Positions 1-29,858 of a stretch of 32,000 bases of DNA are shown here, piece by piece. This DNA is from an uncultured bacterium. GTDB lineage: Bacteria; Auribacterota; JACPWU01. The position numbers and the translations under genes are program-made. The stretch is taken from positions 396,403 to 428,402 of the forward strand of contig CAZXEQ010000001.1 of the NCBI GenBank assembly GCA_964640155.1. The letters run 5' to 3'. Position 1 is the first letter of the stretch; the number at the start of each line of letters is the position of its first letter. The notes under the pieces were generated by a model that did not search any database, was not told the DNA's origin, and worked only from the letters and a program-made list of their open reading frames with translations.

Positions 1-3000
1 GCGCAGGTTCCCTTCGTATGCGATCAAAAAGAACGGATTCATCTGATAATCCAAGAGACAGAGAAGAACCTATCTGCATTATTTTATAAGCTTTGTTCTG
101 GAGAGGTTCTTTTAGAAGAACATGATCCCATGAGCCTGGCAATAGAGGATCTGTAACTCCAAGCAAACTTTCCCAACTATTGATCATTCTTTCAATTCCC
201 AAGTTAGAATTCCAAAAAATATTATGAATATGATAAGAAGTCCATCTTGTCTTCAAAATTTCATAATTACTTGAATTTTTGAAAAATGCTTTAGCGTCAT
301 AAGTAGCGATCTCTTTTGATCCTTGTATCACTCTAATTGTATCTTTTCGGATATCCCAATGAAGAGAAATCGAAGCAGACCATGATGTCTTCTTAAGAGT
401 GTCTCTTAATAAGTTATGATCGAGAACTTGATCTCTTCTTGAGAATACAAGACCTCTCATATGATCAGCTCTTGCATCAAATCCTGAAACTCCATAAATC
501 CCTTGAAGAAGCGTTGTAAAAGCAGCGCGATAATAATGCTCTCTTACATCATCACTTTTAGCTAAAGCCGCACGTGTTAGAAAAACATCTACCTTGTCAT
601 AAGCAAACAGCACATATCCCTTCTCAAGGGTAATAGAATCTCCAACGTTGATACGCGTTTGAACAACATAATACGATCTTGATCCTAAAAGTTCCGCGTT
701 AAGCATAAAATGAAGCTTTCCAGAGTTTAATTTCTCTTTCAAATCAGCCCAAGAATCTAATCCTAAACTTTCAAACCACGGACGAAGACGCGCTTCACCT
801 CCCAAAACATCCAAAACAGAACCATTCACTTCAAACAGATCTTTTCCTCGGCCTTGTAATTCTTTAAGTCTAGTTTCTAAAACTTGATCTTGATCATGAA
901 CTGTTATATTTGCTTTTTCACTCCTTAAAATAACTTCTCTAAAAGCATTTTTCAATTCCAGAAAAAGCTGCTCTCGAGAATAAGTTAAAGCCATTTTCCC
1001 AACATAAATCTTCCCTTCTTTAACAATAATTCCTGGATCAGATTCCGAATCAATTACTACTTCAAAAGAAGATGGGTTTTTTCCCGTAAGAAATGCAAAG
1101 GCCTTAATAGCCCAATCGTGTAAAACTTCTGTGGAACCCTGTGGATGAACTCTTGCCATTCTCAATGAATCAAAGCTTAAGGAAAAATGCTCAAGAAGAA
1201 ACAAAAAATGAGAATAATCTTTTTCTAGATAATCCGAAGGAAGATGCACTTTAATTCCTATAGAATTAAGAGAAATCACAATTTTCCCTTGAAAATCTTT
1301 CAAGATACTGACATAGAATTTTTTCAAAGTTTGAATATATGGATCTTGTCCCAATGATGCAATCAATTTAGTAATCCATTTGGGCTGAAAATATGGATTT
1401 TGTCTCAGAGCATCTAACCATTTTTGCTTATCTACATCCTTCGTTTGTTTTAAAAGCTTTTCATAAAATTTTAAAACTTTTTCTTCTTCCTTTTCATTTT
1501 TCAGAATGGATTCGATTAAATTTGGATGACTCAACAAAAGTTCCCAGACTTTTTTCTTCACTTTATCCGCAATTTGTCCGGCCCTATCCTCTATTTCATC
1601 ATCCAATTGCAGAAGAGGATCCTTTTTCCAAGATTCCGTCATTCTCCTTAAATAATTCCAATCTTCCTCAAGAGCTGCTTGCTCCAAAATCCAAACCATT
1701 AAATCACTCAATTCGCCACATCCATCCTTTGCGTTTTCTCGACTTTGAGCATCTCGATTGTAAAAAGGTTCGTGCTGAACAGCATCTGTATGAGGGAGAT
1801 ACCCTATCCGCTCTATTAAAGGATGAACCAACGTCTGAGCTAAAATGGAAGCAGATACAGATTGCACAAAAGCTTCCGTCACATACACCCTAATAACCGC
1901 TTCTGCTTTTTCTTCAATTATATCTGTCCATTCATAAATAGGTCGGGTGCGCCCTTTTAATCGGAAACCCTTATCATCACCCATATTTATCACACAAACT
2001 TCTACGCGCCCTTCTTTAAAAACTTTGTGGCCTATTTTTAAAGGGACTTTCACATTTTGACCAAACAAAATAGCGCGAGCAATTTTTTTATGAAGACCTT
2101 CATAAAAAGGAGGAATATCTGAATTCCTCAAAGCTTCCGGAATTTTTTTCTGATTCATTTCATCACGTTGCATCACACGAATGGGATTTTTAGCAGCCAA
2201 ACCTTTCAGCTCTTTCGCTTCCAATTTAGTTAAATGGGCCTCCCCCGGAGCATGTTTAGTAGCAATTGCAGCTTGCCTTTGTCCCAAGCGTAAGCCTTCT
2301 TGAAGTAAATTCTGGAGATTACTTCGAGCTAAAGGTTCTTTTAAAAACGCCCCTATCTTTTTTGCCAATTCGTTGGGATCAAATCCTGACAATCTTCTCA
2401 TTTCCAAAATATTTTTTTGAATCAAATCTTCTATACGGAGAACGAATAAATGAGTTGAATGATTTCTAAGTAAATCTATCAAAGCATAAATAGCGTTGTC
2501 TATTCTCTCACCCTTCAAATCATTCAGAATCACTTCTAAAGTATCTCGAATAGAGACATGCTGAAATTCAAGCTCCTTATCATATTCATTTTTGATAATG
2601 ATATCCGCATCTCGACGTTCTTGATCTATTGTATAACGAAAAATAAAATTTCTTGTTTTCGGAAAATCTTTTACAAAGCGAACTTCCTCCATTTGAACTT
2701 TGCGGATTGATTCTAAAAAAGCCTTTTTTGCACTTTTAAAATATTTCTTACGATTTTTTGGAGTTCTTGCACGCTCAGATTTAAGAATCCATTTCAAGAC
2801 AGACGAAGCTAAGTCCTCTGACAAAGATTCTTCTGTTAATTTCCTTAACTGCTGAATATTATTAGCTTTTCTTGAAAGTCGGGCCAGTTGAAGTATATTT
2901 TTTTGCTGCATGAAAGGCCGAAGCCTTTCAACCAATATATCCTCATGAATTTCCATAAAAACATGAATATCTGCTTCCATAGGCTCAGTGGTTAAATCTG

Positions 3001-6000
3001 AAAATTTGTCTCGTCCATTTAATGAATACGCTCCTTCAACAATGACCAGTTTCTTTCCCTTTTTCTTTGCCTGTTCAACTTCTTTTTCCAAAGAAGATCG
3101 CTTTGAATAATCATCTGCATGAATAATAAAAATTTCAGAGGGTTTAATATCATTCAAACCCCATTGGGCAATTGCATCCACCCATGCTGTTTTTCCTGAT
3201 CCGGGGCGGCCTCCTACACGCACAATAACAGGCCCCTTTCTTTTAGACTTTATCGCGGATACTTTCATAAATAAATCGCCATAAGCCTCTCTAACTTCTT
3301 TTCTCTGAACTCCCCAACGGTTTTTAATCTTTTTACGATAAGGATATGTTCCTGACCGTAAGGTTCCTTTCCTTAATCCAAATCCATCTCTTTGTTCAAA
3401 CCTTTCTATATCGTCTATCGTTAATATTCCTTCTTCTCCAGGAAGTGTCACATGTATATCTCTTTCTGTTATCCATCTTTCACCTTTAGCCCCATGCAAA
3501 ATTTTATGACAAGCAATTGAAAGAATGCTCGCGATTTTTTGGAAACGCTGAAGCATCACTGAATCTATATTTTCATCTACATCTAATTCTGTCTGGGAAG
3601 CTGAAGCAACTTCTTTTGGAAGGGGTTGATAAGCATCTATTCCTTCTTCCATATAAGCATTCAAAACATGTTCTAAATCTGATAATGTTTCGACTCTATT
3701 GCTCTGCCCTTTAAGTTGCGGAATTTCCTCAGATAAGACTTTATTGATAAGCTTTCTAGCCTCATCATAACCAAACGCATCCATGACTCCATCTCCTAAG
3801 CAACGGACCGAGATATTGCTTATCCTACTGTATTGAAAGTTTAAAATATCTAATACTTGCGCTAAAGCCATCGGTTTTTCAGAAACTCGATCAAGATCCA
3901 CAAAAACAACACGATAATCTCCTTCTGCGGTTTTAATCATCATGATATTTTCTGGGGTAGGATCATCAATGATATGCCCATTTAAAACCTTCCACATGTC
4001 TAAAACGCCAGAAACAGCAGAGCGATAAAGCTTGTCCATTGCTTTAAAATAATCGGCTTCTGAAATAACTCGTTGGGCCTTCTGTGTTGCAAGATCTAAG
4101 CATAGTCTCTTTAAAGAAACTGCCTTTACCTTGCCTTCAGAATAAACTGTCACTTTCTCTCCCCCATTTAACTGTACATCCACATGAGGACCAATACTTG
4201 GATGCATACCTGCTGCTTTTAAAGCAAAACCAGCTTCTCTAGCCCTACGACGAGCTTCAGGAGTAACATCAGTTTGAGACCTAAAAACTTTCAAAATAAA
4301 AATATATTCATTTTTCTGAGAAATTTGTGCTCCCGATTGAACAACCACTTCGTAAACACGCTTTCTACTACCTTCATCTCCCCACAAACGAATTTCAATA
4401 GAAGCAATATCTTCAGGAGCTATAGAAATGCCATAAATAGAACGTAACGCCTCAATCACCATCGGTTGAACTTTTTCTCCTTGAAATCTCATAGTTTTAA
4501 TCAGTGCTCTTTGAATTACTTCTGTGTCACGATCTCCAATTTTTTCTTGGCGAAAATGCATTTTGGAAATTAATATATCTTTGAACTTTGAATCTTCAAC
4601 CCCAGACGCCTCATATCGATCGTCTAATTCTTTTCGAGCAGCTTGATAAAACAAACCCTTTGGATCATTGAAATGAATAGGTTCTACATTTTCTAATTCT
4701 TCAACACTCATACAAGCAATTTCACATTGAGCCAAGGCATGTGCAGAAGTCCCTTCTAAAGCTGCATCTACGGCACAAGCAATGGCATGAGCATGTTGAA
4801 TATCTGTTTCTGTAAATATTTGATCTTCTCCATCGAATTTTCCCTTATTAAAAATTAAATCTGCTATAATTTTTGCTTCAGTATATTCATGCCGTCTCAA
4901 AATTCTTTTCGCCTCTTTACCAATATCATCCTGATCCATTCTTTTTAATAAATCTTTACGAGTTTTAATTTTTCGACTGAGGAGATCCCAATAGGCCAGA
5001 TCTCCTCCATGATCTTTACTTGGTTCAATTTTCCCCAAAGGGTAAAATTGACTTTCACTTCCTTCTTCAATTGCTAAATTGGCATACTCTGTTTTTGGAG
5101 TTTTCTTTAAAACTTTTAAAACCACAGCTACTCTTTTTTGTAAATAGATCTCTTTTTCTTGAAGAGTTTCACCTGGAGGCCAATTTTCATCTTTTCGACC
5201 TTTGGCTGGGATTTTGAGGGCGGAAGGTTTAGTAGCACGTACCAGAGAAGATTCTTCGGGATATTCCAAAAATTTTCCTGCTACATCCTCTTTTAATTTA
5301 TCAAGAATAGGATTCCTAATTTGACGAGTACACGTGATATTGCCCATCCTTTTAATCACTTCAAATATAGCCAAAAATGCTTTGACCTGAGAAATCCCTT
5401 CATCGCTGCCAAAATAGCCCTTAAGAAATTGTTCAGCTAAGCTTTGCCCTTGAGCTGGATAAGCTTGATATAGGTGCATAGTGATAAACCAAAGCTCATA
5501 GTAAAGATATCCCAAGTCTTGAGCTGCCGTTAATCCCTCTCTTTTGATAACAGAATCTAAATCATGCAAAACAGGTAGCTGACCATTTAGGATAGAAATA
5601 TTGTTATAATGCAAAAATCGATGAATAAATCCTGAGTCATGAAATTGTCGAACAACTCTTCCATATGCCATTAAAGAGTGCGGATCAAAATGCTTAAATC
5701 TTTTATCAACTTCCATCCCATCACTTAAACCGAAAGCAATAAAAGCTGTTTTTCTTCCATTCAATTCGACTCCTGGATACTCTCCCCAAACCAGTGGATA
5801 TTTTGTTTGAGCAACGCCCGAAAGAGAAGTCCGAGGAGATAAAAGAGTTGCCATTTGATATAACATTTGAGTATTTAAAAATTCTTCTAACACCCCTTTT
5901 AACCAAGCACCTCCTTGTGGGATATCACTATAGGGAATTCTCATTAAATTCCCGCCCAAATCAAATCCCATAGACTCACCCACCCCCGATCCTGCATGAG

Positions 6001-9000
6001 CAATTAAGGGTTTTCTTGCATCAAAAACAACTCCTTTTGCTTGAACATCCTTCATGGGATTATCATCATAAAGGAAACGAGGCAGATACTGAGAACGGTC
6101 TCCCAAAGAAATTTCAACAGAACGAGTATTCTTTTGTGTTTTAACATTTGTGGAAGCACAAACTGCAATTTTCAAAATCATATTTCTAACATTTTGATTT
6201 TTAATTTCATCCACATGAATTTCTTCTGCCTCTTTTTCTCCAATCAATAACTCTTTATTTACATATAGAGTAATCAAACGATCTCCTTGAGGGACAATAA
6301 CTCGCCTTGTGAATCTAAGAACCCTTTCTTTTAAACGTTTTTCTTGCTCTTCAATTACAGCGAGATAAAATTTTCTTTCAACATCATTTGGATGATGTGG
6401 TTGTATTTGACTAAGCTCTTCATCACTCATTAAAGGAATCACTAATTTCATCAAAGGATGTAAAGCCCCATTGATATGGGCGTCCAAAGCAGAAGTGATG
6501 GCATGTCGTCGATCACGATCGGACTCCTGAAAAGTTCTTTCACCTTCAGGTTTTTCCAAATCTTCGTCAATCAATTGACGAAGTAAAACATTTTCGACAT
6601 ATTCATGACGACGAAGAATTTCGATAATTTTCTGAAATCTTGCTGGGTCTGTTTTTTCTAATGCATAGATGCCATCATAAAGATCTTCACGGACATAAAT
6701 AGCTTGAATATCCCCACTGTCCCAAAACTTACAAAAGGCAAAGTCATTGTTATGTTCTGGAGGGAATTTATTTCTTTCCAAACGTTCGATCTTTAACCCT
6801 TGATAAACATTGGGATCAAGCCTTTTCAAAACCTCATTCACTTGATCTTCGCCTATGGGTTGAGATATTTTTTTGCCTTGGCCTGGGATCGCAAAAGCCC
6901 CTTCTTTTTCTAAAGAGATTCCGAAATTCCAAAGATAATGAAGAAATAATGTCAGTACAAAAACTCCTACTAAAACACCTGGGTTTATTGCAGAGGTAAA
7001 ACTCAAGAGTGCTAGAGGAGAAAAGATAAAAAGACCATTCTTAAATTGAAGCCAAAGCATTTCAAGCTTTGCATCTTTACTTCCTGGCAAATGAAGAACA
7101 GAAAAGATGATAGCCGTCACAAAGACTGGAACAAAAAGTGCCAGAGGAGCTACTCCTAGTACAGGATTCAGTGCCAAGATAAGAGGCAAACTCACCAGGA
7201 TTGAAAATGCATTTTCAAACGCGGGGCCCCATTTTGGATAACCAGGCAAATGCTTTAGCCATAGGAAAAGGGCTTTCCTTCCCCCGCGAAGTTCTTCAGA
7301 TGTAGCTGACACCACAACAGCTTGTGGTGAAACTACTTGACCTAAACTTTCTGGAGAAACTCCTTTTTCAACTAAAAATGCTTTCAATACCACTTTAAAA
7401 GGAGGAACAAGTGCAGGAGTTTGCTCATCTAACATTCTATAAAAATAACTATCTCCCCTCCCAGCTTTATCCAATAACGGATAAGCTGCTTGTAGCATCT
7501 CCAATCCATGCTCAGGATACAGTGTTAAAACACCTTGAAAAATCTCGTATAACACCCATCTTAGCTGATCTCTTGACTGGAAAGCGGTTAGATGTCCTGC
7601 CAATATCAGCAGAATATCTACCAGTTGTGTATAGGTGCTTACCAAATCTACATCAATTAATTTTCCTTCAATTACATCTACTTCTCGAGAAATTTCACGA
7701 GAAGTCATTTCTAAAATTTTTCTTATTTTATCTGCTGTTATTTGATGAAGAGCACCATCTTCGTCTTCCATGTGAGAGTCTAAAGCATGCTCTCCTAAAA
7801 AATTTACAACTACATTTCCTCCATGAGGGTCATCAATAAAAGACTTTCGCCCTGTCGCTTCCCAAGCTCTTAAATAAATTCGGACAATATTACGTAAAAG
7901 AATGGATCTCATCATTAAAGCTTCTGTCGAGGAAAGATCTCTAGATGCCTCTAAATTTCTTACTTGTTGAACAATCCTTGACCATCTCAAGCCTTTAACT
8001 ACATCATCGCTCATGACCCATACTTCCCCTCCCCCAAGTGTTCCTTTTTCAGGAGACCAGGTAGCACCCAACGCAGGATAAAGACCTTTTTCATAAAGCA
8101 TTCTTGCCATTTCATTCATCATCTGAATTTGAAAATTCCCCCATTGTTGAACAACCGCGAGAAAGAAATTAGGTTGTGTTACTTCGATAACGATTTTATG
8201 CTGTTTGCCAGTGCTTAAGATCACTTTCACTTGATAAACATGTTTCATGCCATCTTGATCTACTTTAAAGCCAATCACTTCAACAGGTCCTTCTCCTAAC
8301 TCAAGTCCATGTGTGTTCATCAAAGTTTCTTCAATAAAATTATCTGCGAAGGCTGCTTCTAAAAAATGATGATCTGGTTCTTTAACCGTTGATGATCCAT
8401 GACTCCAAATAATTTGTCTCTGACTTCTTCGAGCAAGCTCAGTTTGCACAGCACTATAAAAAGCTTGATCTTGATCGTTAGGATGAGTTTCTTGAATTTT
8501 TTGTAATTCACTTTTTCTCATAAGCAAAATGACATGTTTCATAAGAGGGTGAAAAGTGGTAGGGTTAGGATTTTCTAAACTTCCACTTCCAATAGCAGCA
8601 TCAACCGCAGAGGTTAAAAAATGCTTTTGAGCTTCATCACCTGTCGCTAAAACACCTTCTCGAATCAATTGAGGAATTAAAACATTCTCAACATATTCAT
8701 GCCGTTTAATGATTAATTGAGCAACAGGATTTTTTTGAATGCGATTCCAAAGACTTCGACGAATTTGAACTTTGTAAGTTTTTTTGTCATTGCGAGCCGC
8801 AGGCGAAGCAATCTCAACCAATCTTGCAAAATCATCTCCCTTCCCATCAAAAGATTCGACAATTTCAAATGGGAGATTTTCATAATCGTGACTCCCATCT
8901 CTTTTCAAACGTTCCAAAATCGCATCAATTTTTGCAGCGGCTGGAGGACCTTGAGCATGCGTTTCACCTGAGCCAGGGGCTTTGAGAGCTCCTGGTCTTG

Positions 9001-12000
9001 GAGAGGCCGTTGCCTGTCTTCCTCTAATTCCATCAAACCAAAATGCCATGAAATGACAACTTGGAGAAAATAAAGTTTGAATATCACTTTGAGTCAGTAA
9101 TTCTCTAAAATTTAAAGTAGGAGGTTTTTTCTTAAGTGCTGCATCGATTCTTCCGGGATCGTCAACTTTTAGACTTTTTTGTGAAAGAATTTCCCAACGA
9201 AGCATGACTTGAAAAAAAGGGGACAAATCTGGATTTCTTAAAGCTCGATCTAAAATCCAAAGTCTTTCACGGCGCTCACTGAATCTTCCCTCACGTTCAC
9301 AAAATTTTTGCAAAGAAAGATGAAATTGGCCCAAATCACTTTCAGTCCAGAAATCACCTGGAGCGAAAAGATAGGACGCCTCTCTTCTTACAATCTCTGC
9401 CTCAAGATGAAGATATTTATAAATAGCATCAAAATATTTTTTTCGAAAGGCTTCGTCGCTGACTAGCTTGCGATCTATCTCATCGGAACTTGTATATCTT
9501 GGGAAAAGTTCGTTTTTTAAAGCTTGAAATTCTTCCCTCACTTTTTTTTGTTCAATCATTTTCCCCGCCCGAATACAAAACATTTTCAAAGAAGCTGAAC
9601 GTTCTTTGGAATAGCGTAAAAACTTTGCTACGTGAACTCGGATCACATTCCCAGTTACTTCAATCGGAAAAGATTCGTCCCGCTCTTCGGGTTCTGGCGT
9701 CTCATTTATTTCAAAATGAAAAGAAGAATTTTTATTTTGAATAGCTTCTAGTAATATTTCAAAATCCTCAGAGAAAGATGGACTTTCTGGTATTTGTCTT
9801 TTTGGCATTTGTTGAGCATATTTTCTCAAAATCCTAAGAATTTTATCTTTCGGTGTCTTATCTCTATCGATCTGCCAATTATGCACATAATGAAACAAAA
9901 TTGTGATACCCGTAACCCCTATCAAAAGAGGAATCTGTGCCACAGAAAAACCAAGAAACGTCACAACAATCATTAAGGGGGAGAATAATGCCCCTCCCAT
10001 CCAAAAATATTGAACAAAAAGTTCCCACTTAGAACCAGAACCTGATTTAGGGAAATGAAATAAAGAGAATAGAGTTGGAAATCCTAGAGCAAAAACAAAA
10101 TGATAAAATAAATCGCTTCTAGTTATAAAAGGAAGACCCGTCACAGCAGTGAGAATCGCAAAGAGTCCAAAATTAAGTAGAATTACAAAAACATTTTCAA
10201 AGGTCGGGCCCCATTTTTCATAATTTTTTAAATGTCTAAGCCAAGGGAAAAGGGCAAATTTTTCAAAAACAACTCTTGCCTCATCAGGCCTTAAAATATT
10301 TTTTGCAAAACCTATCTCTCCTTTTAGCACCTTATCCATATCTACAGCATCCAAACATAAACTTAATAGAAAAGGTTTACCAACACTTAGTTTTTTTTCT
10401 ATCCGAGAGCGTGAATTTGAACCCAATCCTGATGTTTCTTTTTCTAGTTCAAAACGAATCACCACTTGAAAGACAGGAGATAGTTCTGGATTTTCCAACA
10501 TCCGATCAAGGGCAAAAAACCTTAAACTTACATCATCATAAGGACGACCTCCATTCCATCTAACAACATCTGATGTTGACTGGTTAGGATCGTGAGCATA
10601 ACCATGGTTTTTAAAATACTCTAAACAAGCACGATCCTTCTGCATTCTCAACGTCAAATTATTTTGACTCCAAGTAAAATAGAGGCCTTGCAACCAAGGA
10701 TCTGCTTTGAAATTCTCATAAACTGTTTGAGCTGTTTCTTCCTTTGGATAAAGTTTCTTTTTCTGCTGTATTAACTCTCGCATCTTTTCTTGTTGTTCTA
10801 AAAAACCAGAAAAGCTAATGCAAAAAATCTCCAAATCTAAAGAACCCCCTTCATCCCCCGGCATAAAAGCGGCATAATCTAAAACAACTTTACCTTTTAT
10901 TAGTTGAATGGGAGGACTTGATGCTTCTGGTTTAGGAGTAACACCCAAAAACGGACCATTCTCTACTTCAATATCACCCGCTTTCAAGAGCTCTATCAAA
11001 TAATAAAATTTTTGTTTCTCAGTAAAATCATTTGTTTTGTCGTGAAATTTCTGGAAAATAGCTAAAATTTCTAATTGTGTATTGTCTAAATTGGGTACTT
11101 CTATAGATTGATGTTCAACCTTTCTTTCAACACTTTCACCATTCATAACTTTATTCCAAAGAGACAAAAACTCATTCCAAAAGAAATGAAGGGTAAATGA
11201 AAGAGCAAGAACCCATCCAAAAATAATTTGATTCATAATCAACGCAGGAAAACCTAAAACAAAAACAGATAAAATGAGAGGAGAAAGAATAAACAATCCA
11301 CTTATCAGCTGATCATGAAAAACCTTACTTTTTTCATTCCATGCAGTCCCCGGTAAATGAGACAAAGCAAATACGAATGGCAAAGCTATTGCTGAAACAA
11401 TCCGAATCATCGGACTAGGATGGTTGATAGCTTCAATACAGAAAGATTTTGTTGCAGCAACCCAAGGGCGAGATTCATCTAAAATTCCCCACTCAAAGAG
11501 CTTCATTGCAATCGCAAAAGGCGCTGCACTCCATCCAACTGCCCACAAATTTTCAAAAATGGGGCCCCATTTTGAATAACCAGGCAAATGCTTAAGCCAA
11601 GGGAAAAGGGCTTTATCATCTTGAATTGTTTGAGGGTTTCTTCTTTGAAGCTCTTGTTGAACCGCATTATAAAATTCTTTTCGAGTATCATTCGGATGCT
11701 TCTCTTGGATGGCCTCAAGCTCTGATTTTTTCATAACTTGAATCACACGCTTCATCAAGGCATGGACAGAATTGGGTTTTCTCTGGTCAATACTCCCATC
11801 CCCAATTCTTTCATCTACAATAGAGGCAAGTGTATGTGCTTGGGTTAAATCATCCGAATTCAAAGCGCCTAGCCTAAACAATCGAGGAATTACAACATGT
11901 TGTAGCCAAGCATGACGTCTCAAAATCAATTGAGCATCAGAATCTTCTTTAATTTGATTCCAAAGATGTCGATGAATTTTAAGAGTAGGTTTGAATTGAT

Positions 12001-15000
12001 GTGTTGAGGGATCTTGAACAGAAATCAATCGAACTAAGCTACCTTCGTCTTCTAAAGAATCCACAACCTCAAAAGGAATACACGCATATTCAGCGATATC
12101 TTCTTTTCGAAGAGCTGTAAGCATCGCATCAATTTTTGCAGGATCAGGAGGACCTTGAATGCGTGTCTCTCCCTGCCCAGGAATTTTAAAAACAACTAGA
12201 TCTAAACCCTCTTGCCATCTCTGTGTTTCCTCTGATTTTCTCATCTGAAAATCTTTAATGCGTTCTGCTAACTCCAGGGGATCCATTTTTCCATCGAATA
12301 GGTATCCTCGGGGAAGTTTTCCCATAATCTCCTCAAGTAATTGCGGATTGTCCGGAAATTCCTCCAAGAAAACTTCAAAAAGAAAGTCCATATTCTCGCC
12401 CGAAAATCTATGAAAAAATTCATCGGCAATCAAAAGAAGGATTTTGACGATATCATCAGAAGGAATCACAACATCTGCATCTATTAGGTAAAAGCCTCGA
12501 GGGAAATCTGCAATTAATCTTTCAATATTCTCTTGTGTCACAACTTGATCTTTAGGCCAGTCCACCATTAAATTTCCAAGAAAAGAATCAAAAATAAACA
12601 TTTTTTTCTCAGAAGTTTTCCATACATGAATATAAAATCGAGCTAAAGCTTTAAATAAATCTCTCCTTAATTTGTAATACACCTCAGCGGACATTCTTTT
12701 TTCATCAAATTCTTTTTTCAATGCTCTGATTAAATTCCCTCCATTTTTACCTTCAACATATTCCTCACTGAAAACCCAGACTTTTTTTGTATGCCTGACT
12801 TCTTGAATTTCTCCCTCCCACATTCCTCCAAAACCTGGATAGCACCCCTTTTCAGACCACATTTGAGTTTGTTCTACAATCATTGAGGATTGTGTATGGT
12901 GAGCACTTTCATCAAACCCTTCGTAAAATCTAGGTTGTGTGACTTTAAAAACAATTGTTTTTATTCCTCCCCCCTTCAAAGGCAATATCAACTGATAAAC
13001 ATGTTTCATTGCATTTTTTCGCAAAGAAACAGGAATAACTTGAATTGGAGCTTGCTTATCCAAATCAACTTCTTCTCCATAAATATTAATAAGAGATGTT
13101 TCGAGAAAACCATCCTTTAAAGCTCTCAAAATGAGATCTCGATCCCGGGGAGGAGTAGGTGCAGCAATTCTCTTCCACTCTAAACGACGAATGACTTTTT
13201 CCCTTTCTCCTAGCTCACGTTTAGCTGCTTTCTGAAAGGCTCCTGCTGGGTCATTCGGATGCCTGCTTTTAACTGCTTTTAATTCTTCATTGTTCAACAA
13301 AGGAATCGTATGCTTCATTAAAGCATGATAAGAAGTTTTTTCTAGTTGAGCATCAATACGGGAAGCAATGGCATGGGCTTCTCTAACTTGATCTTCTTCT
13401 AAAGTTTCAAAATCAGATTTTCCAACATTGGCAGGCAAACCTCGCTTTAAACTGGGAACAAGCACATATTCAATATATTTACGACGTATCAAAATGAGCA
13501 AAGCCTCTTGATCGTTTTTAATTCGATTCCAAAGATGACGATGAATTTTAATTTCCCCATATTCATGATCATAATAAGCAAGATCTTGAGCTAGCCCCTT
13601 AGGCAATACATCGACGACATCAAAATAACTAGAAAGATCTTCATTCGATGTTTTCAATTTTTCGAGTTCTCGGAATTTTTCTGAATCTCGCCACTCGTTT
13701 AAAACAAAGTCTACCGCATAGTTCATTCTTCCTTCGGGAATCGGGTTTTTGACCAGATCGCGTCTTTGAGTCATTTCTGGGATATAGGAAGTCAAAAATT
13801 GGTAAGCTTCTCTTCCAAGAGCTCCTCCCCCATTTTCAAAAACAGCTTTTGAAGCCACACGTAAAAAGTCTTCGGCAGGTATCATTTGAAGGTGATAAGA
13901 GCCCATGGCTCCATCGGCTAAAACTTGAATGCCCTGGTCCAGCCACAATGCCTTTGAGCTTTTAGAAACAAAACTTAAAACAAAAGCCTCTTTCCCTTTC
14001 TTCACTAAAACAAAACGCGCTTTCCCAGACACAATCTCTCTAGGGAAAAATCGCAAATCAGCAATGTCAGGGAAATCTTTTTTCAAGGCCGCATGCCTTT
14101 TTGCCAAAACTTCCGCAATATTGGAAATTTGTCCTGCTATGGCTTCTCCTCCTGCGGTCATTTCAAATTCTATACGAAGGGTGGACTCTAATTGTCTGGC
14201 GACATCGGCATCACCAACCAGAGCATGCAAAAGAGAGCCTTGATGAAGTGTATGGGAAGTAGAAGCTAACTTTTGCTCAAATGCTGAGGTTTTCCCTAAC
14301 ATTCGAGCACGATAGAGAGCTTCCGTCTTCTGGTCTACTCCTTGGGTTTGAGGTGTAATGACGGTATATGAAATATTTTCATTTTCAAAAAACTGTGTGA
14401 AAGAATCTGTATGAAATCCACCTGTGACAAGGACGACAACAGATCGGTTTGTTTCTTTCATCCTTTTCAACGTGTTCTCGTAAAGGATGTGATCTCTTTT
14501 TTGAGCCAATTCATAAAACTTCTCGAATGGGGAAAGATCAAAAGAGACAGGACCTGCAATTTTTTCTAACCATAATATTTTTTCATCTTTTATTTCTAAA
14601 AATTCTTTTAACTCTTTTCGACTTAACTTAAGAGAAATCAGTTTTTCAACAAGACAAAGAGTTTGTACTTCTTTCCAAAATTGCTTTTCTTCAGAAGATT
14701 GAAACAACTGATCCGCTACAAGAAGTTCAAGCTGTTTTATTTCATTAGAAATTTTTGCATGATCAAGTTTTGCCCCCAACTTCACAAAGTCAATGTATTG
14801 AGACAAGTCCGGATAAGATTTAAGCGTCTCTTCTCCTACCAAATTTTTCATCTCTGCAAAATAAACATCGTCCTTTATACGCCCCAGTCGATATTCCAAC
14901 CCCTTACGAATCCATTCTTGAAGCTCTTCTCTTGGGAGTTGTTGACTCAGTTTCTCATTAAGCAAATTTCTTTCTTTTTCTATCTTCTCAGGTTTTAACT

Positions 15001-21367: not shown

Positions 21368-21494
21368 ATAAAAGTATGTTCTTTTAAGAAGTAGCGGGTC
21401 CTGCCACTCGACAGCCCCATCGTGCTCACTAAAAGTTGCGCTCGATGGGGCACCCCGTCGAGTGTCACCCACATTATAAAAAACATACTTTTAT
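21368..21494. other. 127-nt imperfect long hairpin with a GC-rich core (unclassified structured element)
   Basis: The outer stem pairs ATAAAAGTATGTT with AACATACTTTTAT. The inner stems pair CACTCGAC with GTCGAGTG and CCCCATCG with CGATGGGG around a 20-nt loop. The element lies between two divergent promoters. Confidence 0.4.
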
Positions 21495-21529
21495 TCACAA
21501 GATCAGCTGCGCTGAAATTCTCATTTTTC

Positions 21530-21558
21530 TTGCTTTTGACTAAAGATTTTCATATAAT
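21530..21558 (+). promoter_or_regulatory. Candidate sigma70-type promoter for the proline-rich protein gene
   Basis: TTGCTT (21530-21535), a 17-nt spacer, then TATAAT (21553-21558). A GGTGGA SD lies 8 nt before the ATG at 21611. Confidence 0.5.
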
Positions 21559-21610
21559 TTTTTCGTTATATTTGTATGGGGGCTTAACCTTAAATCGTAG
21601 GTGGACTGCC

Positions 21611-23455
21611 ATGCGTAAGCCTTTTTGTTTTTTGTTTGCTCTTCTTGTCTTCTCTTTTGTTCAATCCCAAACCTCTTTTTCAGATTCTTATCGTCCAGGA
21701 ACTCTTGATTTTGCTTTTGATGCCGGTTCTGATCCTGGACAAAACACATCTTATACGTTGAATATTTATGCTCCAGGCGTTGTAAGGGTCATGGCTGTTT
21801 GGAGAGGTCCTGCGCCGGCTTTAACATTACTTGTTCGTGGCCCTGGAGCCAGAACTTATCAGGCAAGAATGGATGGAACTTCACCCCTTATTCTCAACTT
21901 TTATGTATCTCCAAGACAATTATCAATCGGCACAACATGGCAGATTACCATTTTAAACTTAACAGGTTTAGGTGGTGGCTACGGACGTGTTTATATTCAA
22001 TTCCCCATACCGACACCCCCTCCGGCACCCCCTGTTAGATTTGATTATGCACATTACTATTATTATTATGGATTTTGGTATGAAATCCCTTTTATACATA
22101 TTCATACGGATTGGTGTGGACATTATAGAGGCGGCCCAGGCTGGGATAGACCTAGACCGAGACGACCAGGGCCAGGAGATGGCCGACGCGGTGGACCTGG
22201 AACTCCTCCAGGGGGATCCAGACCTACTCCTCCATCTGGCGGAAGACCAACAGCACCTCCAGGCACTGGGATGAGACCCACTGCTCCTCCGAGCACTGGA
22301 AGACCTGCGCCTACACGACCTCCACTAGGAGGTTTTAGACCTGATGATCGCATCGACCCTGAAAGACTTCGCACGGCTATACCCATTACTACTCGTCCTC
22401 CCAGACCTCCATTAGGTGGATTTCGTCCTGATGATCATATTGATCCAGATGTGATTCGCACCGCAGTACCCATTACCACTCGTCCTCCAAGACCTCCGTT
22501 AGGTGGGCTCAGACCTGATGATCACATTAATCCAGATGTGATTCGCACCGCAGTACCCATTACCACTCGTCCTCCAAGACCTCCGTTAGGTGGGCTCAGA
22601 CCTGATGATCACATTAATCCAGATGTGATTCGCACTGCTGTGCCTATTACAACAAGACCTCCTAGACCAGCATTTACTTTACCCCCAGGAGCTTTAACAA
22701 TTGCTCCTTTGACAACTCGTCCCCCAACTCCATTGGGGACATTTCCTCCTGGGATCACAACTAGACCTCCTGTCAGAACTTTGGGACCTATTACCGTTAT
22801 ACCGACTTTTACTTTTCCTAGAACAACAAGCAGTCCTAGAACTTTAATGCCTATTGATCCAGGACTGACATTACCTCCAGATATTTTAACAGGACCTCCG
22901 ATTACGCCTCCTCCATCTGAGATTCCGATATGGACAATGCCTCCTTCAGAAATTTCACCTGATGTACATCCAGATCGATGGAATGACGAAAGAAAAGAAG
23001 AACGATTTCCACAAAAAGGGTATGAGGATTCACAGAGATATCCTAAGCCTGAATATCAACCCCCTGTTGTTCAACCTTATTTCCCAGAAGAAAAAAGGGA
23101 TTTTCCTAAGTGGGAACAACCCTCGCATGAGAAACAAGCTCCTTATATTCCTGAAGCCCAAGAGCAATTTCCTCAGAAGGGTTATGAAGACCCAGGACAA
23201 TACTCTAAACCTGAGTATCAAGCTCCCATTCAACCTTCTTATCAGGAAGAAAAATATGCACCTCCTATACAAGAAGCTCCACCTATGGACCAACCGAAAT
23301 ATGAGGCTCCTCCTGTGTATGAACAACCTTCATATCAGGGAAAAGAGAGTTTTCCTCAAGATAATCAATATTCTGATTCTGGAGGAAAGAACGAGAATTT
23401 TGCAGGGCCCACTCAAGCAGATATGAAAGAAGATTTTAATCAAGGGAAGTACTAA
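21611..23455 (+). CDS. Secreted proline-rich repeat protein
   Basis: The ATG at 21611 gives MRKPFCFLFALLVFSFVQSQ (signal peptide). The track's upstream extension to 21422 runs through the promoter. A compact N-terminal domain (about 130 aa) is followed by a Tyr run (YAHYYYYYGFWY), then a long P/G/R/T-rich region with 29-aa repeats and a Y/P/E/Q-rich tail. Confidence 0.8.
   Translation: MRKPFCFLFALLVFSFVQSQTSFSDSYRPGTLDFAFDAGSDPGQNTSYTLNIYAPGVVRVMAVWRGPAPALTLLVRGPGARTYQARMDGTSPLILNFYVSPRQLSIGTTWQITILNLTGLGGGYGRVYIQFPIPTPPPAPPVRFDYAHYYYYYGFWYEIPFIHIHTDWCGHYRGGPGWDRPRPRRPGPGDGRRGGPGTPPGGSRPTPPSGGRPTAPPGTGMRPTAPPSTGRPAPTRPPLGGFRPDDRIDPERLRTAIPITTRPPRPPLGGFRPDDHIDPDVIRTAVPITTRPPRPPLGGLRPDDHINPDVIRTAVPITTRPPRPPLGGLRPDDHINPDVIRTAVPITTRPPRPAFTLPPGALTIAPLTTRPPTPLGTFPPGITTRPPVRTLGPITVIPTFTFPRTTSSPRTLMPIDPGLTLPPDILTGPPITPPPSEIPIWTMPPSEISPDVHPDRWNDERKEERFPQKGYEDSQRYPKPEYQPPVVQPYFPEEKRDFPKWEQPSHEKQAPYIPEAQEQFPQKGYEDPGQYSKPEYQAPIQPSYQEEKYAPPIQEAPPMDQPKYEAPPVYEQPSYQGKESFPQDNQYSDSGGKNENFAGPTQADMKEDFNQGKY
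22310..22668 (+). repeat. In-frame 87-bp tandem repeat array (about 4 copies; copies 22451-22537 and 22538-22624 identical)
   Basis: The unit encodes VIRTAVPITTRPPRPPLGGLRPDDHINPD. Unit boundaries fall at 22364, 22451, 22538 and 22625. The flanking copies are diverged or partial. Confidence 0.9.
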
Positions 23456-23529: not shown

Positions 23530-25182
23530 TCAGTTTATTCTCTCTAAAATCACTGCCTTACCTTCTTCCTGATAAACAGCCCTAAAATACCGCTCATCTT
23601 GCAAAGTTTTAAAGTTATAGGGAATTCCAAATCCATAAAAAATTAAATTTCCATTTGTTCCCATATTCTCTGAAACAAAAAGATGTGTCGCATTATAGCG
23701 TTTCATCAAGGCAATAGCTTCTTCGGGATTATCTGTCGTGTAAATACGATAAACATCCATGGGAACGGTATAATTATTCTGACTGATAAAAGGATAAGTT
23801 ACATTTCTTAATGGGAAAGCCATGCCCAACAAAGCCCTTCCTCCCGAAAAACCTCCAAACATTTGAGCACGATAATAATCTGCAATAATACGATCTGTAG
23901 GTTTGGAATGTTCACGAAACCACTGGCCTGCACGAATTTCTTCCATTGTAAAACCAGCATTCTTCATGCGATCCGAAAAACCAAAATTGATCTGAATGTC
24001 GATGAGCATTAAAATAAAAATCAATGGGATAGGAATTATGCTAAAAACTTTTTTTCTAGAAAATCCCATGTTAAATAATTTTCGAACAGAATCCATCATC
24101 ATCAAGCCAAAACCTACCGCTAAAGGCTGTGCTAGGAAACAATAAAATCGAAAACCTTCCAAAGGTTTCCAAACGGTTGACCAAGCAAGTTCGTCTTTTT
24201 TGAAAAGAGATAGAATTGTTTCATTATGAGTTTCAAAAAGAGGGACCAATGCCCAGAAAAAAACCACCCACCCATATTTCAAAGGATTCTTTTTTCCAGA
24301 AAAGATTCTAAAAACAATCAGAAGAAAAAAATACAAGCCCGCAATCCCAGCTACAATGCCATAATCACTCAGTTTCTTTCCTGCTGCATAATTCCCACAA
24401 GAGGTCACAATCGATTTAATCCACCACCAATAAAGATTCGTCGGATACCACCAAAAAATGGTTATTAATTGAGAAATGGCAATCACAAAAATAAGATCAA
24501 TCCATAGTTTAAATTTTGCAATTTTTTCAAAAGAAAGAGCAACTGTAACGAGGGCCAAATAAACGAGAAGTAAAAAATAAAAGAGATGTGTCATGAAACA
24601 TACAGCTAAAAGTCCACCTAATATAAGAATACGAAACCATTTTGCAAGACAACTTGAACGTGCAGAACTTCTCCATTCCACGTGCTTAATCCATAAAAGT
24701 AAAACCAAAGGCGTCATAAATAAAACAAATGACTGCACATCACAAATCCCAGTCCAAAAAACAAATGAAGGCGTCAGAGCAAGAAACAACGTGGCTAAAA
24801 TAGCTACCCCCGTTCCCATCAAAAATCGGCAGAAAACATAGAGAGAAAGAGGCGCCAGAGACTCTATCCAGGGGACAATACGAGAAGCTACTGTTGGTAA
24901 ATCCTGATGAGAAATTTTTGCAAGACCATTTAAAGCATGAAGTCCAAGAGGGGGATACCAAAAAGGGACATAACCATAAGATTCATAGCGAATATCATGG
25001 TCTGTGATATGACCATGATCCAAAATATTTTGAGCCATGGTTAAGCGATACCAAATATCTGCTTCAAAAGTTAAAAGATGAGGGTCTTGTTCCAAACGAG
25101 GTAAAAGACGAAAATAAAGCCCGCTAGCATAAATAATCACAAGAAATAAAATTTCAAATAGAATTTTTGATTTTTTTGTCAT
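23530..25182 (-). CDS. GT-C fold membrane glycosyltransferase, STT3/AglB-like (divergent)
   Basis: 550 aa with about 11-13 TM helices. The first loop, LTFEADIWYRLTMAQNILDHG...DHDIRYESYGYVPFWYPPLG, resembles the STT3/AglB EFDPYFNYR...YPxG region. The soluble C-terminal domain has RIIADYYRAQMFGG where WWDYG would sit, followed by EEAIALMKRYNATHLFVS. Confidence 0.55.
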   Translation of the reverse strand: MTKKSKILFEILFLVIIYASGLYFRLLPRLEQDPHLLTFEADIWYRLTMAQNILDHGHITDHDIRYESYGYVPFWYPPLGLHALNGLAKISHQDLPTVASRIVPWIESLAPLSLYVFCRFLMGTGVAILATLFLALTPSFVFWTGICDVQSFVLFMTPLVLLLWIKHVEWRSSARSSCLAKWFRILILGGLLAVCFMTHLFYFLLLVYLALVTVALSFEKIAKFKLWIDLIFVIAISQLITIFWWYPTNLYWWWIKSIVTSCGNYAAGKKLSDYGIVAGIAGLYFFLLIVFRIFSGKKNPLKYGWVVFFWALVPLFETHNETILSLFKKDELAWSTVWKPLEGFRFYCFLAQPLAVGFGLMMMDSVRKLFNMGFSRKKVFSIIPIPLIFILMLIDIQINFGFSDRMKNAGFTMEEIRAGQWFREHSKPTDRIIADYYRAQMFGGFSGGRALLGMAFPLRNVTYPFISQNNYTVPMDVYRIYTTDNPEEAIALMKRYNATHLFVSENMGTNGNLIFYGFGIPYNFKTLQDERYFRAVYQEEGKAVILERIN

Positions 25183-29782: not shown

Positions 29783-29858
29783 GTTTCTCAAGATTAAAGA
29801 GTTGACAGGGATCCCCCCCCTCTTACCACGTCACCTTAGCCCTAGAAATTATTTATTT

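What the first reader, a model, noticed from the sequence alone, without database searches (positions are those of the whole stretch)
3880..13020. Repeated atypical protein-kinase-like domains with graded motif decay
Three colinear domains share a kinase-like layout:
- 12440-13020: FIFDSFLGNLMV and IDADVV (the degenerate one)
- 7600-8260: IDDPHGGNVVVN and IDVDLV
- 3880-4400: ILKV, IIDDPTPENIMM and FVDLDRV

The DDP-x-x-x-N loops recall ABC1/UbiB, RIO and APH-type kinases. Each domain directly follows an HE-x-x-E/HPND module, so the pair looks like a duplicated functional unit. A mixture of apparently intact and decayed active sites within one chain suggests catalytic plus scaffold copies.
Basis: partly seen in the sequence, partly recalled or inferred. 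Interest (0 to 1): 0.65.

Follow-up and report, generated by a model that had tools for sequence, protein, structure and literature searches.

The report
New kinase-fold domains in giant protein
A 5,277-residue membrane protein from an uncultured bacterium (closest match Candidatus Auribacterota) carries three, possibly four, copies of a very rare domain that no sequence database recognises; structure prediction places it in the protein-kinase fold, with the sugar kinase WaaP as the best match.

Summary
They lie on the minus strand, inside one 15.8-kb ORF (window 15799..2, 5,277 aa, protein P0001).

The three regions are homologous:
- K1 vs K2: BLASTP E 2e-31.
- K2 vs K4: E 1e-4.
- All three link through shared relatives at 1e-12 to 1e-17.

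No Pfam, NCBIfam, PADLOC, PHROGs or PDB sequence search recognises them. A profile search of 1.84 billion representative proteins found only 13 relatives.

AlphaFold2 on a 15-sequence family alignment gave a confident K4 model (pLDDT 89.8, pTM 0.88). Foldseek against the PDB returned 328 hits at E<=1e-3. WaaP ranked first, and every one of the top 50 was a protein kinase or pseudokinase. The kinase-like reading is therefore supported.

"Graded motif decay" is not supported. The catalytic-loop Asp and Asn are invariant in all 15 family sequences, and all three window copies keep the DFG-like Asp. The only loss is the beta3 Lys in K2, which is Glu.

The HPND module precedes the K domains often, but not always.

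The parts
2..15799 (-). Giant ORF (protein P0001, 5,277 aa). It starts at ATG 15799. The last 11 codons and the stop lie beyond the window start.
   Evidence: A stop-free frame runs from 15835 to 2. P0001 from the representative library matches it exactly from M13 onward and adds 11 C-terminal residues. The syntenic orthologue P0002 (4,263 aa) has the same neighbouring genes.
12236..13144 (-). K1, kinase-fold domain (P0001 886-1188). Key residues: G-loop K932, beta3 K952, candidate alphaC E976, catalytic D1071 and N1076, DFG-like D1107.
   Evidence: HMM envelope; residue mapping; BLASTP to K2 E 2e-31.
7409..8374 (-). K2, kinase-fold domain (P0001 2476-2797). Key residues: G-loop K2519, beta3 position E2539 (Lys lost), candidate alphaC E2563, catalytic D2657 and N2662, DFG-like D2716. 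A ~45-aa insert lies between the catalytic Asn and the DFG-like Asp.
3662..4528 (-). K4, kinase-fold domain (P0001 3758-4046). This is the copy that was modelled. Key residues: G-loop K3813, beta3 K3837, candidate alphaC E3855, catalytic D3946 and N3951, DFG-like D3968.
   Evidence: AlphaFold2 pLDDT 89.8, pTM 0.88. Foldseek against the PDB returns only kinases, with WaaP first.
5246..6277 (-). K3, a candidate fourth and highly diverged kinase-like domain (P0001 3175-3518) that follows module A4. It reads FIHRFLHYNNI...PVLHDLDS: no catalytic Asp (HRF), Asn and DLD kept. Not proven.
   Evidence: Only weak matches, though in register: PpkA 5hnv at E 0.03-0.09 over the catalytic loop to DFG; hhalign to the K family E 0.037, probability 1.4%. 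It is 52% identical to the orthologue's copy.
13148..13663 (-). Module A1 (HPND module), directly before K1.
11612..12118 (-). Module A2. It is followed by membrane module T1, not by a K domain.
8384..8914 (-). Module A3, directly before K2.
6278..6835 (-). Module A4, directly before K3.
4592..5083 (-). Module A5 (HFND variant), about 20 aa before K4.
11144..11641 (-). Membrane module T1 (about 4 hydrophobic helices).
   Evidence: Hydropathy; alignments.
9836..10285 (-). Membrane module T2.
6866..7303 (-). Membrane module T3, directly after K2.
2576..3538 (-). P-loop region resembling nucleoside/uridine kinases. Walker A GRPGSGKT lies at 3188-3211.
   Evidence: Weak NCBIfam PRK09270 match, E 3.9e-5, far below the curated cut-off; weak Pfam P-loop hits; motif position.
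13736..15799 (-). N-terminal domain with a hydrophobic leader. It is shared with the paralogue at 25256-29791 and with proteins of several candidate phyla.

Best explanation
The three regions (K1, K2, K4) are copies of one previously unclassified family within the protein-kinase-like (PKL) superfamily. It is a compact, WaaP/RIO-style bilobal domain with a very short activation segment and no APE motif.

Shown:
- The three copies are homologous.
- The fold is a kinase fold.
- Residues sit at the canonical positions and spacings: a G-loop followed by Lys-x-Val-Tyr, a beta3 Lys, an alphaC Glu candidate, a catalytic D-x4-N loop, and a metal-binding Asp in a hydrophobic-Asp-x-Asp motif.

Inferred:
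- The Asp and Asn are invariant in all 15 family sequences, and the DFG-like Asp is in 14 of 15. This holds even between copies that share only about 28% identity. The copies are therefore most likely active ATP-dependent phosphotransferases rather than decayed scaffolds.
- The absent activation segment, WaaP as the best structural match, and a relative fused to sugar-phosphate enzymes all suggest a sugar, lipid or other non-peptide substrate, or an unconventional protein substrate.
- The domains are strung along a 5,277-aa membrane protein, together with five HPND modules, three 4-helix membrane modules and a P-loop kinase-like region.

The substrate, and the side of the membrane on which the domains act, are unknown.
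For: Homology:
-.

Rarity and lack of annotation:
- 13 hits in 1.84 billion representatives.
- No Pfam, NCBIfam, PADLOC or PHROGs match.

Fold:
- AlphaFold2 with a 15-sequence alignment gave pLDDT 89.8 and pTM 0.88.
- Foldseek against the PDB gave 328 hits at E<=1e-3. WaaP 6dfl_A is first (E 6.5e-7, TM 0.48/0.55). PknB, JAK2 JH2, PknG, PknA, the CurKC kinase domain, YopO and WNK1/3 follow. All of the top 50 are kinases.
- The predicted secondary-structure order is the canonical one: beta1-beta2-beta3-alphaC-beta4-beta5-alphaD-alphaE-catalytic loop-beta7-beta8-D-x-D.
- Spacings in K4 are K75-E93 = 18, D184-N189 = 5 and N189-D206 = 17 residues. From memory, the PKA equivalents are 19, 5 and 13.

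Conservation:
- D184 and N189 are invariant. K51, G131 and D206 are nearly invariant across the 15 domains.
- All five K1/K2/K4-type copies in the two orthologous giants keep the Asp and Asn, although K1 vs K1' is only 29% identical.
- hhalign places WaaY's GDPHRGN...IIDLSG on the family's DP...N...DLD in register.
- Relative P0012 fuses the domain to ribulose-phosphate 3-epimerase, GatZ-like, APH and B12/radical-SAM domains.
Against: - No sequence or profile method links the family to any kinase at a significant level:
  - PDB hmmsearch: best kinase is WbdD at E 2.2.
  - hhalign to E. coli WaaP and WaaY: probability 0.4% and 5.6%.
- The fold assignment rests on one predicted model, of one copy (K4), built from a 15-sequence alignment.
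- Foldseek TM-scores are modest (0.3-0.55) and rmsd values are large.
- K2 lacks the beta3 Lys. The alphaC Glu column is acidic in only 9 of 15 members.
- The orthologue's K4 copy has Glu at both Asp positions of the D-x-D motif.
- The N-terminal leader, together with membrane modules that each appear to have an even number of helices, would put all soluble domains outside the cytoplasm. ATP supply there is a problem (inference).
- No biochemical data exist.
Confidence: 0.7

Rival explanations
1. The domains have the kinase fold but are pseudokinases. They would act as nucleotide-binding or purely structural docking modules of the giant protein, without phosphotransfer.
For: - K2 has Glu at the beta3 Lys position.
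- The orthologue's K4 copy has E-L-E in place of D-L-D.
- The candidate K3 has HRF/HLF and no catalytic Asp.
- JAK2 JH2 pseudokinase structures are prominent among the fold hits.
- The alphaC acidic residue is not conserved across the family.
Against: - The catalytic Asp and Asn are invariant in all 15 sequences. The metal-binding Asp is present in 14 of 15, despite 17-30% pairwise identity. This pattern is expected for catalysis, not for scaffolds.
- K1 and K4 retain every canonical residue.
Confidence: 0.17
2. The domains use the kinase fold for a different nucleotide-dependent reaction, such as AMPylation (as in SelO), glutamylation (as in SidJ) or plain ATP hydrolysis (as in Bud32). The examples are from my own knowledge of those families.
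For: - The family is too divergent to be recognised by any kinase profile.
- It has an unusual near-invariant Lys in the G-loop.
- It lacks an activation segment.
Against: - The active-site layout is the ordinary phosphotransferase one (D-x4-N plus D-x-D at canonical spacing).
- None of the top 50 structural matches is a SelO-like or SidJ-like entry.
- Nothing positive points to an alternative chemistry.
Confidence: 0.1
3. The kinase resemblance is a coincidence of short motifs, and the domains have a non-kinase fold.
For: - No significant sequence or profile match to any kinase.
- The first AlphaFold2 run, with only three sequences, was uninformative (pLDDT 42).
Against: - The confident second model matches kinases exclusively.
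- The motifs fall on the expected secondary-structure elements, in the expected order and spacing.
Confidence: 0.03

Closest known systems
WaaP / Kdo-kinase type lipopolysaccharide kinases (Pfam PF06293; structure 6DFL)
   Same: - Best structural match (E 6.5e-7, TM 0.48/0.55).
- Compact bilobal kinase fold with no long activation loop.
- Catalytic D-x4-N loop and an I-D-L-x motif.
- E. coli WaaY's GDPHRGN...IIDLSG aligns in register with the family's DP...N...DLD.
   Different: - No member reaches any score against PF06293, even at E<=10.
- hhalign probability to E. coli WaaP and WaaY is 0.4-5.6%.
- Identity to 6dfl_A is 13%.
- These domains sit as repeated modules inside a giant membrane protein, not as ~230-270-aa single-domain enzymes (E. 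coli WaaY 232 aa, WaaP 265 aa).
- They carry a conserved G-loop Lys.
RIO, Bud32, APH and ABC1/UbiB atypical kinases
   Same: - PKL fold.
- Hinge of the type E-x-(I/V)-x-G.
- Catalytic Asp and Asn five residues apart.
- Short or absent activation segment (based on my knowledge of these families).
   Different: - No match to PF01163, PF01636 or PF03109.
- None of these families appears among the top 50 fold hits.
Hanks-type bacterial Ser/Thr kinases (PknB, PknA, PknG, YabT) and WNK kinases
   Same: - Ranks 2-4, 8, 9 and 28 (the bacterial kinases) and ranks 21, 25, 31 and 38 (WNK) among the fold hits.
- The family's near-invariant Lys in G-x-x-K-x-V-Y has the same local pattern as WNK1's GSFKTVY. 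I confirmed that WNK1 sequence against PDB entries. That this is WNK1's catalytic Lys233 is from my own knowledge.
   Different: - No HRD motif, APE motif or activation loop.
- Most family members also keep the beta3 Lys that WNK kinases lack. Only K2 and P0012 lack it.
- TM-scores are 0.3-0.4.
Giant multi-domain bacterial proteins of candidate phyla (for example the Omnitrophota giant genes, bioRxiv 10.1101/2023.11.21.568195)
   Same: - Very long ORF with many transmembrane segments.
- Domains too divergent for HMM annotation, recognised only by structure prediction.
   Different: - A different protein. The only 'kinase' mentions found in that paper's main text concern pyruvate-diphosphate kinase domains of Archaeovorins, and nothing resembling the modules described here was found.
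- The closest genome match here is Ca. Auribacterota, not Omnitrophota.
- At 5.3 kaa it is far shorter than the >30 kaa proteins described there.

Membership tests
Protein-kinase-like (PKL) superfamily (fold level) | Bilobal fold: N-lobe beta-sheet plus alphaC, and a helical C-lobe carrying the catalytic loop and the beta7-beta8 hairpin | tested here: met
   K4 model pLDDT 89.8. Foldseek found 328 PDB hits at E<=1e-3, and all of the top 50 are kinases. For K1 and K2 the fold is inferred from homology to K4.
Protein-kinase-like (PKL) superfamily (fold level) | Catalytic loop with Asp and Asn five residues apart | tested here: met
   D184 and N189 are invariant in 15 of 15 family sequences. K1 has D1071/N1076, K2 has D2657/N2662 and K4 has D3946/N3951.
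Protein-kinase-like (PKL) superfamily (fold level) | Metal-binding Asp after beta8 (the DFG equivalent) | tested here: met
   D206 is present in 14 of 15 sequences, including all three window copies. It is Glu in the orthologue's K4 copy.
Protein-kinase-like (PKL) superfamily (fold level) | beta3 Lys paired with an alphaC Glu | tested here: inconclusive
   The beta3 Lys is present in K1 and K4 and in 13 of 15 family members, but is Glu in K2. An acidic residue at the candidate alphaC position is present in all three window copies but in only 9 of 15 members.
Pfam PF06293 (lipopolysaccharide kinase, Kdo/WaaP) | Score above the family's gathering threshold, or at least a significant profile match | tested here: not met
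   No hit for any of the 15 members at E<=10 or for the whole protein. hhalign to E. coli WaaP and WaaY gave probabilities of 0.4% and 5.6%.
Pfam PF01163 (RIO1), PF03109 (ABC1/UbiB), PF01636 (APH), PF00069 (Pkinase) | A significant profile match | tested here: not met
   No hit at E<=10 for any member. The PDB profile search returned no kinase below E 2.
WNK-type kinases (catalytic Lys in the G-loop) | Lys at the third-Gly position of the G-loop, combined with no beta3 Lys | tested here: inconclusive
   The G-loop Lys is present in 14 of 15 members, and its local pattern matches WNK1's GSFKTVY. The beta3 Lys is also kept in most members; only K2 and P0012 lack it.
CPBP / Rce1-type intramembrane proteases (for the T modules, not the K domains) | A Glu in one helix, FxxxH in the next, and HxxxN in a later helix (motifs recalled from memory) | tested here: inconclusive
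   E30, F91, H95, H152 and N156 are invariant in five T copies. However, there is no Pfam hit and no PDB profile hit.

The most novel reading that the evidence does not exclude
The K domains may found a new kinase family in which the near-invariant G-loop Lys, as in WNK kinases, is the main ATP-anchoring residue. That would leave K2 active without a beta3 Lys. The whole 5,277-aa protein has no recognisable domain. It may be an extracytoplasmic or exported multi-enzyme machine that phosphorylates envelope glycans or lipids, or targets in another cell. Its parts would be several kinases, three intramembrane-protease-like modules, five HPND modules and a P-loop kinase.
Probability: 0.15. Interest if true: 0.75.

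Novelty: new variant of a known kind. Interest (0 to 1): 0.5.

Why it matters
- It adds a sequence family to the protein-kinase-like superfamily that no current profile library detects. The family is very rare: 13 clusters among 1.84 billion representatives.
- It gives the first functional handle on a 5,277-aa protein of a candidate phylum that otherwise has no annotation at all.
- Three or four kinase-fold copies in one membrane-embedded chain is an unusual architecture. The copies keep their catalytic residues at about 28% identity. That offers a natural experiment on how kinase domains diverge after internal duplication.
- The conserved G-loop Lys, together with the copy lacking the beta3 Lys, gives a concrete and testable question about ATP anchoring.

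Tried and rejected
Homologue searches that found nothing:
- Three word-indexed searches: the 1,760-aa region, A3+K2, and the 15-sequence alignment.
- Both metagenome-contig scans, with the K3 alignment and with the A-module alignment.

Profile libraries with no hit for the K domains:
- Pfam, NCBIfam, PADLOC and PHROGs scans of the giant protein and its relatives gave no significant hit for the K domains or the other repeated modules. The only annotation-like matches were weak P-loop / nucleoside-kinase hits in the P region.

PDB sequence and profile searches:
- Searches with K4, K3, the K1/K2/K4 profile, the 15-sequence profile, module A, the N domain and the T module gave nothing significant.
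- An FtsH match at E 0.02 to the K profile was rejected as noise. It covers 63 residues and disappeared with the larger profile.

Structure prediction:
- The first AlphaFold2 run, with only the three window copies, was unusable (pLDDT 41.9) and was not searched.

Other checks:
- hhalign of every other module of the giant protein against the K family found no further hidden copies.
- I considered Omnitrophota as the source, but the closest genome hit is Ca. Auribacterota.
- The ORF on the plus strand at 1393-1893 lies inside the giant gene and has no family match, so I treated it as spurious.

Full report
**What is at the locus.** The finding lies inside one very long minus-strand reading frame, stop-free from 15835 to the window start.
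- A protein from the representative library, P0001 (5,277 aa), matches the frame exactly from the ATG at 15799. It adds only 11 residues beyond the window.
- I use P0001 numbering below.
- A syntenic orthologue, P0002 (4,263 aa), sits next to the same AsnC-type regulator, aminotransferase, TonB and TonB-dependent receptor genes on another contig.
- The best genome match for the N-terminal domain is a Candidatus Auribacterota MAG, at 78% identity.

**The observation.** The three regions are real repeats:
- K1 vs K2: BLASTP E 2e-31.
- K4 vs K2: E 1e-4.
- K4 vs K1: E 0.004.
- All three link to the stand-alone relative P0003 at 1e-12 to 1e-17.

HMM envelopes give the true limits:

| Domain | Window coordinates |
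|---|---|
| K1 | 12236-13144 |
| K2 | 7409-8374 |
| K4 | 3662-4528 |

**Architecture of the protein.** Self-comparison and module HMMs give this order:

N-terminal domain - A1 - K1 - A2 - T1 - B1 - T2 - B2 - A3 - K2 - T3 - A4 - K3 - A5 - K4 - P-loop region - C1 - C2

- A is the ~170-aa module ending in H(P/F)ND.
- T is a four-helix membrane module.
- B is a repeated module of unknown nature.
- The orthologue P0002 lacks A1, A2 and the A3-K2-T3 block. Its K1-type domain follows the N domain directly.

**How rare and how unannotated the K domain is.**
- Pfam, NCBIfam, PADLOC and PHROGs recognise nothing in the K domains, or almost anywhere else in the 5,277 residues.
- A profile built from K1, K2 and K4 was scored against 1.84 billion representative proteins. 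It found only 13 proteins at E<=1e-3:
  - the protein itself;
  - the orthologue;
  - a 979-aa fragment with an A-...-A-K arrangement;
  - a 3,159-aa multi-enzyme fusion;
  - an 863-aa protein next to a 2,752-aa one;
  - several 280-650-aa stand-alone proteins.
- None of the ten shorter relatives has any significant Pfam match, and none of the 15 K-domain sequences matches any Pfam kinase family.

**Is it a kinase fold?**
- Sequence methods say nothing. PDB phmmer and hmmsearch runs gave no significant kinase hit. None of the 15 family members touches a Pfam kinase model, even at E<=10.
- AlphaFold2 with only the three window copies failed (pLDDT 41.9).
- With the 15-sequence family alignment, the K4 model was confident: pLDDT 89.8, pTM 0.88, and 195 of 286 residues above 90.
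- Foldseek against the PDB returned 328 matches at E<=1e-3.
  - First was WaaP (6dfl_A, E 6.5e-7, TM 0.48/0.55).
  - PknB, JAK2 JH2, PknG, PknA, the CurKC kinase domain, YopO, WNK1/3 and YabT were among those that followed.
  - All 50 listed hits are kinases or pseudokinases.
- The predicted secondary-structure order is the canonical one: beta1, beta2, beta3, alphaC, beta4, beta5, alphaD, alphaE, catalytic loop, beta7, beta8, D-x-D. A helix follows about 10 residues later, so there is no activation loop or APE motif.
The core interpretation stands.

**Scoring the catalytic residues.** In the 15-sequence alignment:
- The Asp and Asn of the catalytic loop are invariant.
- The Lys that opens beta2 (G-x-x-K-x-V-Y), a hinge Gly and the Asp after beta8 are nearly invariant.

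Mapped onto the window:

| Position | K1 | K2 | K4 |
|---|---|---|---|
| G-loop Lys | K932 | K2519 | K3813 |
| beta3 | K952 | **E2539** | K3837 |
| alphaC Glu candidate | E976 | E2563 | E3855 |
| Catalytic Asp | D1071 | D2657 | D3946 |
| Catalytic Asn | N1076 | N2662 | N3951 |
| DFG-like Asp | D1107 | D2716 | D3968 |

- In I-D-D-P-x-x-x-N, the second Asp has the D-x4-N spacing. K1's IFDSFLGN keeps it.
- What K1 lacks is only the preceding acidic residue and the Pro. Both vary across the family.
- 'Graded decay', and the 'catalytic plus scaffold' reading built on it, are therefore not supported.
- K1, K2 and the orthologue's K1' are only 27-29% identical overall, yet all keep these residues. 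That pattern argues for catalysis.
- Against that, the orthologue's K4 copy has E-L-E in place of D-L-D.

**A possible fourth copy.** The region after A4 (K3, window 5246-6277) reads FIHRFLHYNNISILNGQLPVLHDLDS.
- It gives weak but in-register matches to the PpkA kinase catalytic loop and DFG (E 0.03-0.09). It also matches the K family's N...DLD segment (hhalign E 0.037, probability 1.4%).
- It has Phe where the catalytic Asp should be, in both orthologues. It is nevertheless well conserved between them (52% identity).
- If it is a kinase fold, it is the true pseudokinase-like copy. I could not model it, so this remains open.

**The A-K pairing.**
- A modules sit directly before K1, K2, K3 and K4, and before the K domain in fragment P0004.
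- But A2 precedes a membrane module, the orthologue's K1' has no A module, and stand-alone K proteins have none.
- The modules are also related differently. A2 is closest to A3 (46-51% identity), while K1 is closest to K2. This points to module shuffling rather than duplication of a fixed pair.
- Across nine A copies the invariant residues are an Arg, His, Asp and His, then H-x-N-D. The HExxE string is not invariant.
- The function of module A is unknown. Its profile finds nothing in the PDB.

**Likely mechanism.**
- Shown: a kinase fold with a complete and conserved phosphotransfer site in K1 and K4.
- Inferred: ATP-dependent phosphorylation of a substrate that does not need an activation-segment platform. 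Three things point that way:
  - WaaP is the top fold match;
  - WaaY aligns in register with the family's catalytic motifs;
  - relative P0012 fuses the domain to sugar-phosphate and radical-SAM enzymes.
- These make a sugar, lipid or other small-molecule acceptor somewhat more likely than a canonical protein substrate.
- K2 may rely on the G-loop Lys. Its local pattern matches WNK1's GSFKTVY (sequence confirmed; the catalytic role of that Lys in WNK1 is from my own knowledge).
- Topology is unresolved. A hydrophobic N-terminal leader, together with membrane modules of about four helices each, would place all soluble domains on the same, possibly extracytoplasmic, side. That is awkward for ATP-using enzymes unless the protein is exported into another cell.

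**Verdict.**
- The domains are real and homologous, and they have the kinase fold.
- By sequence they do not belong to any described kinase family.
- I rate this a new variant of a known kind.
- The 'decay gradient' should be dropped.
- Interest is moderate. The surprise lies less in finding kinase-like domains than in their rarity, their multiplicity within a wholly unannotated giant membrane protein, and the conserved G-loop Lys.

Noticed in passing
window 11144-11641, 9836-10285, 6866-7303 (minus strand): Three ~150-aa membrane modules, each with about four hydrophobic helices. Across five copies (three here, two in the orthologue) they share invariant W-G-P-x-F-E-N, F-x-x-x-H-x-P and H-x-x-x-N. 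The Glu / FxxxH / HxxxN pattern recalls CPBP (Rce1/Abi) intramembrane proteases. No Pfam or PDB profile hit supports this.
   Followed up: partly
window 25256-29791 (minus strand): A second large ORF (1,511 aa, no Pfam or NCBIfam hit). It shares the ~470-aa N-terminal domain of the giant protein (28% identity, E 1e-46). It also contains an internal ~150-aa repeat; the second copy carries HEIDH (an HExxH motif) and the first a degenerate version. The strand-then-helix layout around that motif resembles the RHEYVE region of module A.
   Followed up: partly
window 13736-15799 (minus strand); loci L010-L049: The N-terminal domain (motifs VIHIQDLH, MEGA, GGFH) is widespread. Forty loci were found in MAGs of Auribacterota, Elusimicrobiota, Omnitrophota, FCPU426, Firestonebacteria, Goldiibacteriota and Planctomycetes-type bacteria. 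None has K, A, T or B modules within 10 kb. The motif pattern loosely recalls TraB/Tiki-type proteases. This was not tested beyond a negative PDB profile search.
   Followed up: partly
window 2576-3538 (minus strand), Walker A at 3188-3211: A P-loop region (GRPGSGKT) with weak similarity to nucleoside/uridine kinase families (NCBIfam E 3.9e-5, far below the curated cut-off). If real, the same chain may carry a second, unrelated kind of kinase.
   Followed up: partly
window 2-15799 (minus strand): The whole 5,277-aa protein has no significant Pfam, NCBIfam, PADLOC or PHROGs domain. Modules A (x5), B (x2), C1 and C2 remain entirely uncharacterised. Across nine copies, module A keeps an invariant set of Arg, His, Asp, His and H-x-N-D, which suggests a metal or active site.
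   Followed up: partly
window 21422-23455 (plus strand); tandem repeat 22310-22668: A proline-rich ORF (677 aa) in a region of raised G+C (about 0.45, against 0.36 elsewhere). It contains 4.1 copies of an 87-bp repeat encoding TRPPRPPLGG(L/F)RPDDHI(N/D)PDVIRTAVPIT. No family match.
   Followed up: no
window 23530-25182 (minus strand): A 550-aa polytopic membrane protein with a weak, sub-threshold match to the STT3 oligosaccharyltransferase N-terminal domain (E 7e-4). It lies between the proline-rich ORF and the 1,511-aa paralogue.
   Followed up: no
P0012 (3,159 aa, from the representative library): A distant K-family member is fused in one chain to ribulose-phosphate 3-epimerase, GatZ/KbaZ-like, APH phosphotransferase and B12-binding/radical-SAM domains. 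This hints that the K family acts in small-molecule or sugar metabolism.
   Followed up: partly
L003 (orthologue locus) versus the window: Module content differs between the syntenic orthologues. The window protein has an extra A1, A2 and A3-K2-T3 block. Conservation is very uneven along the chain: A4 70%, N 53%, K3 52%, K4 44%, K1 29%, B1 25% identity.
   Followed up: partly
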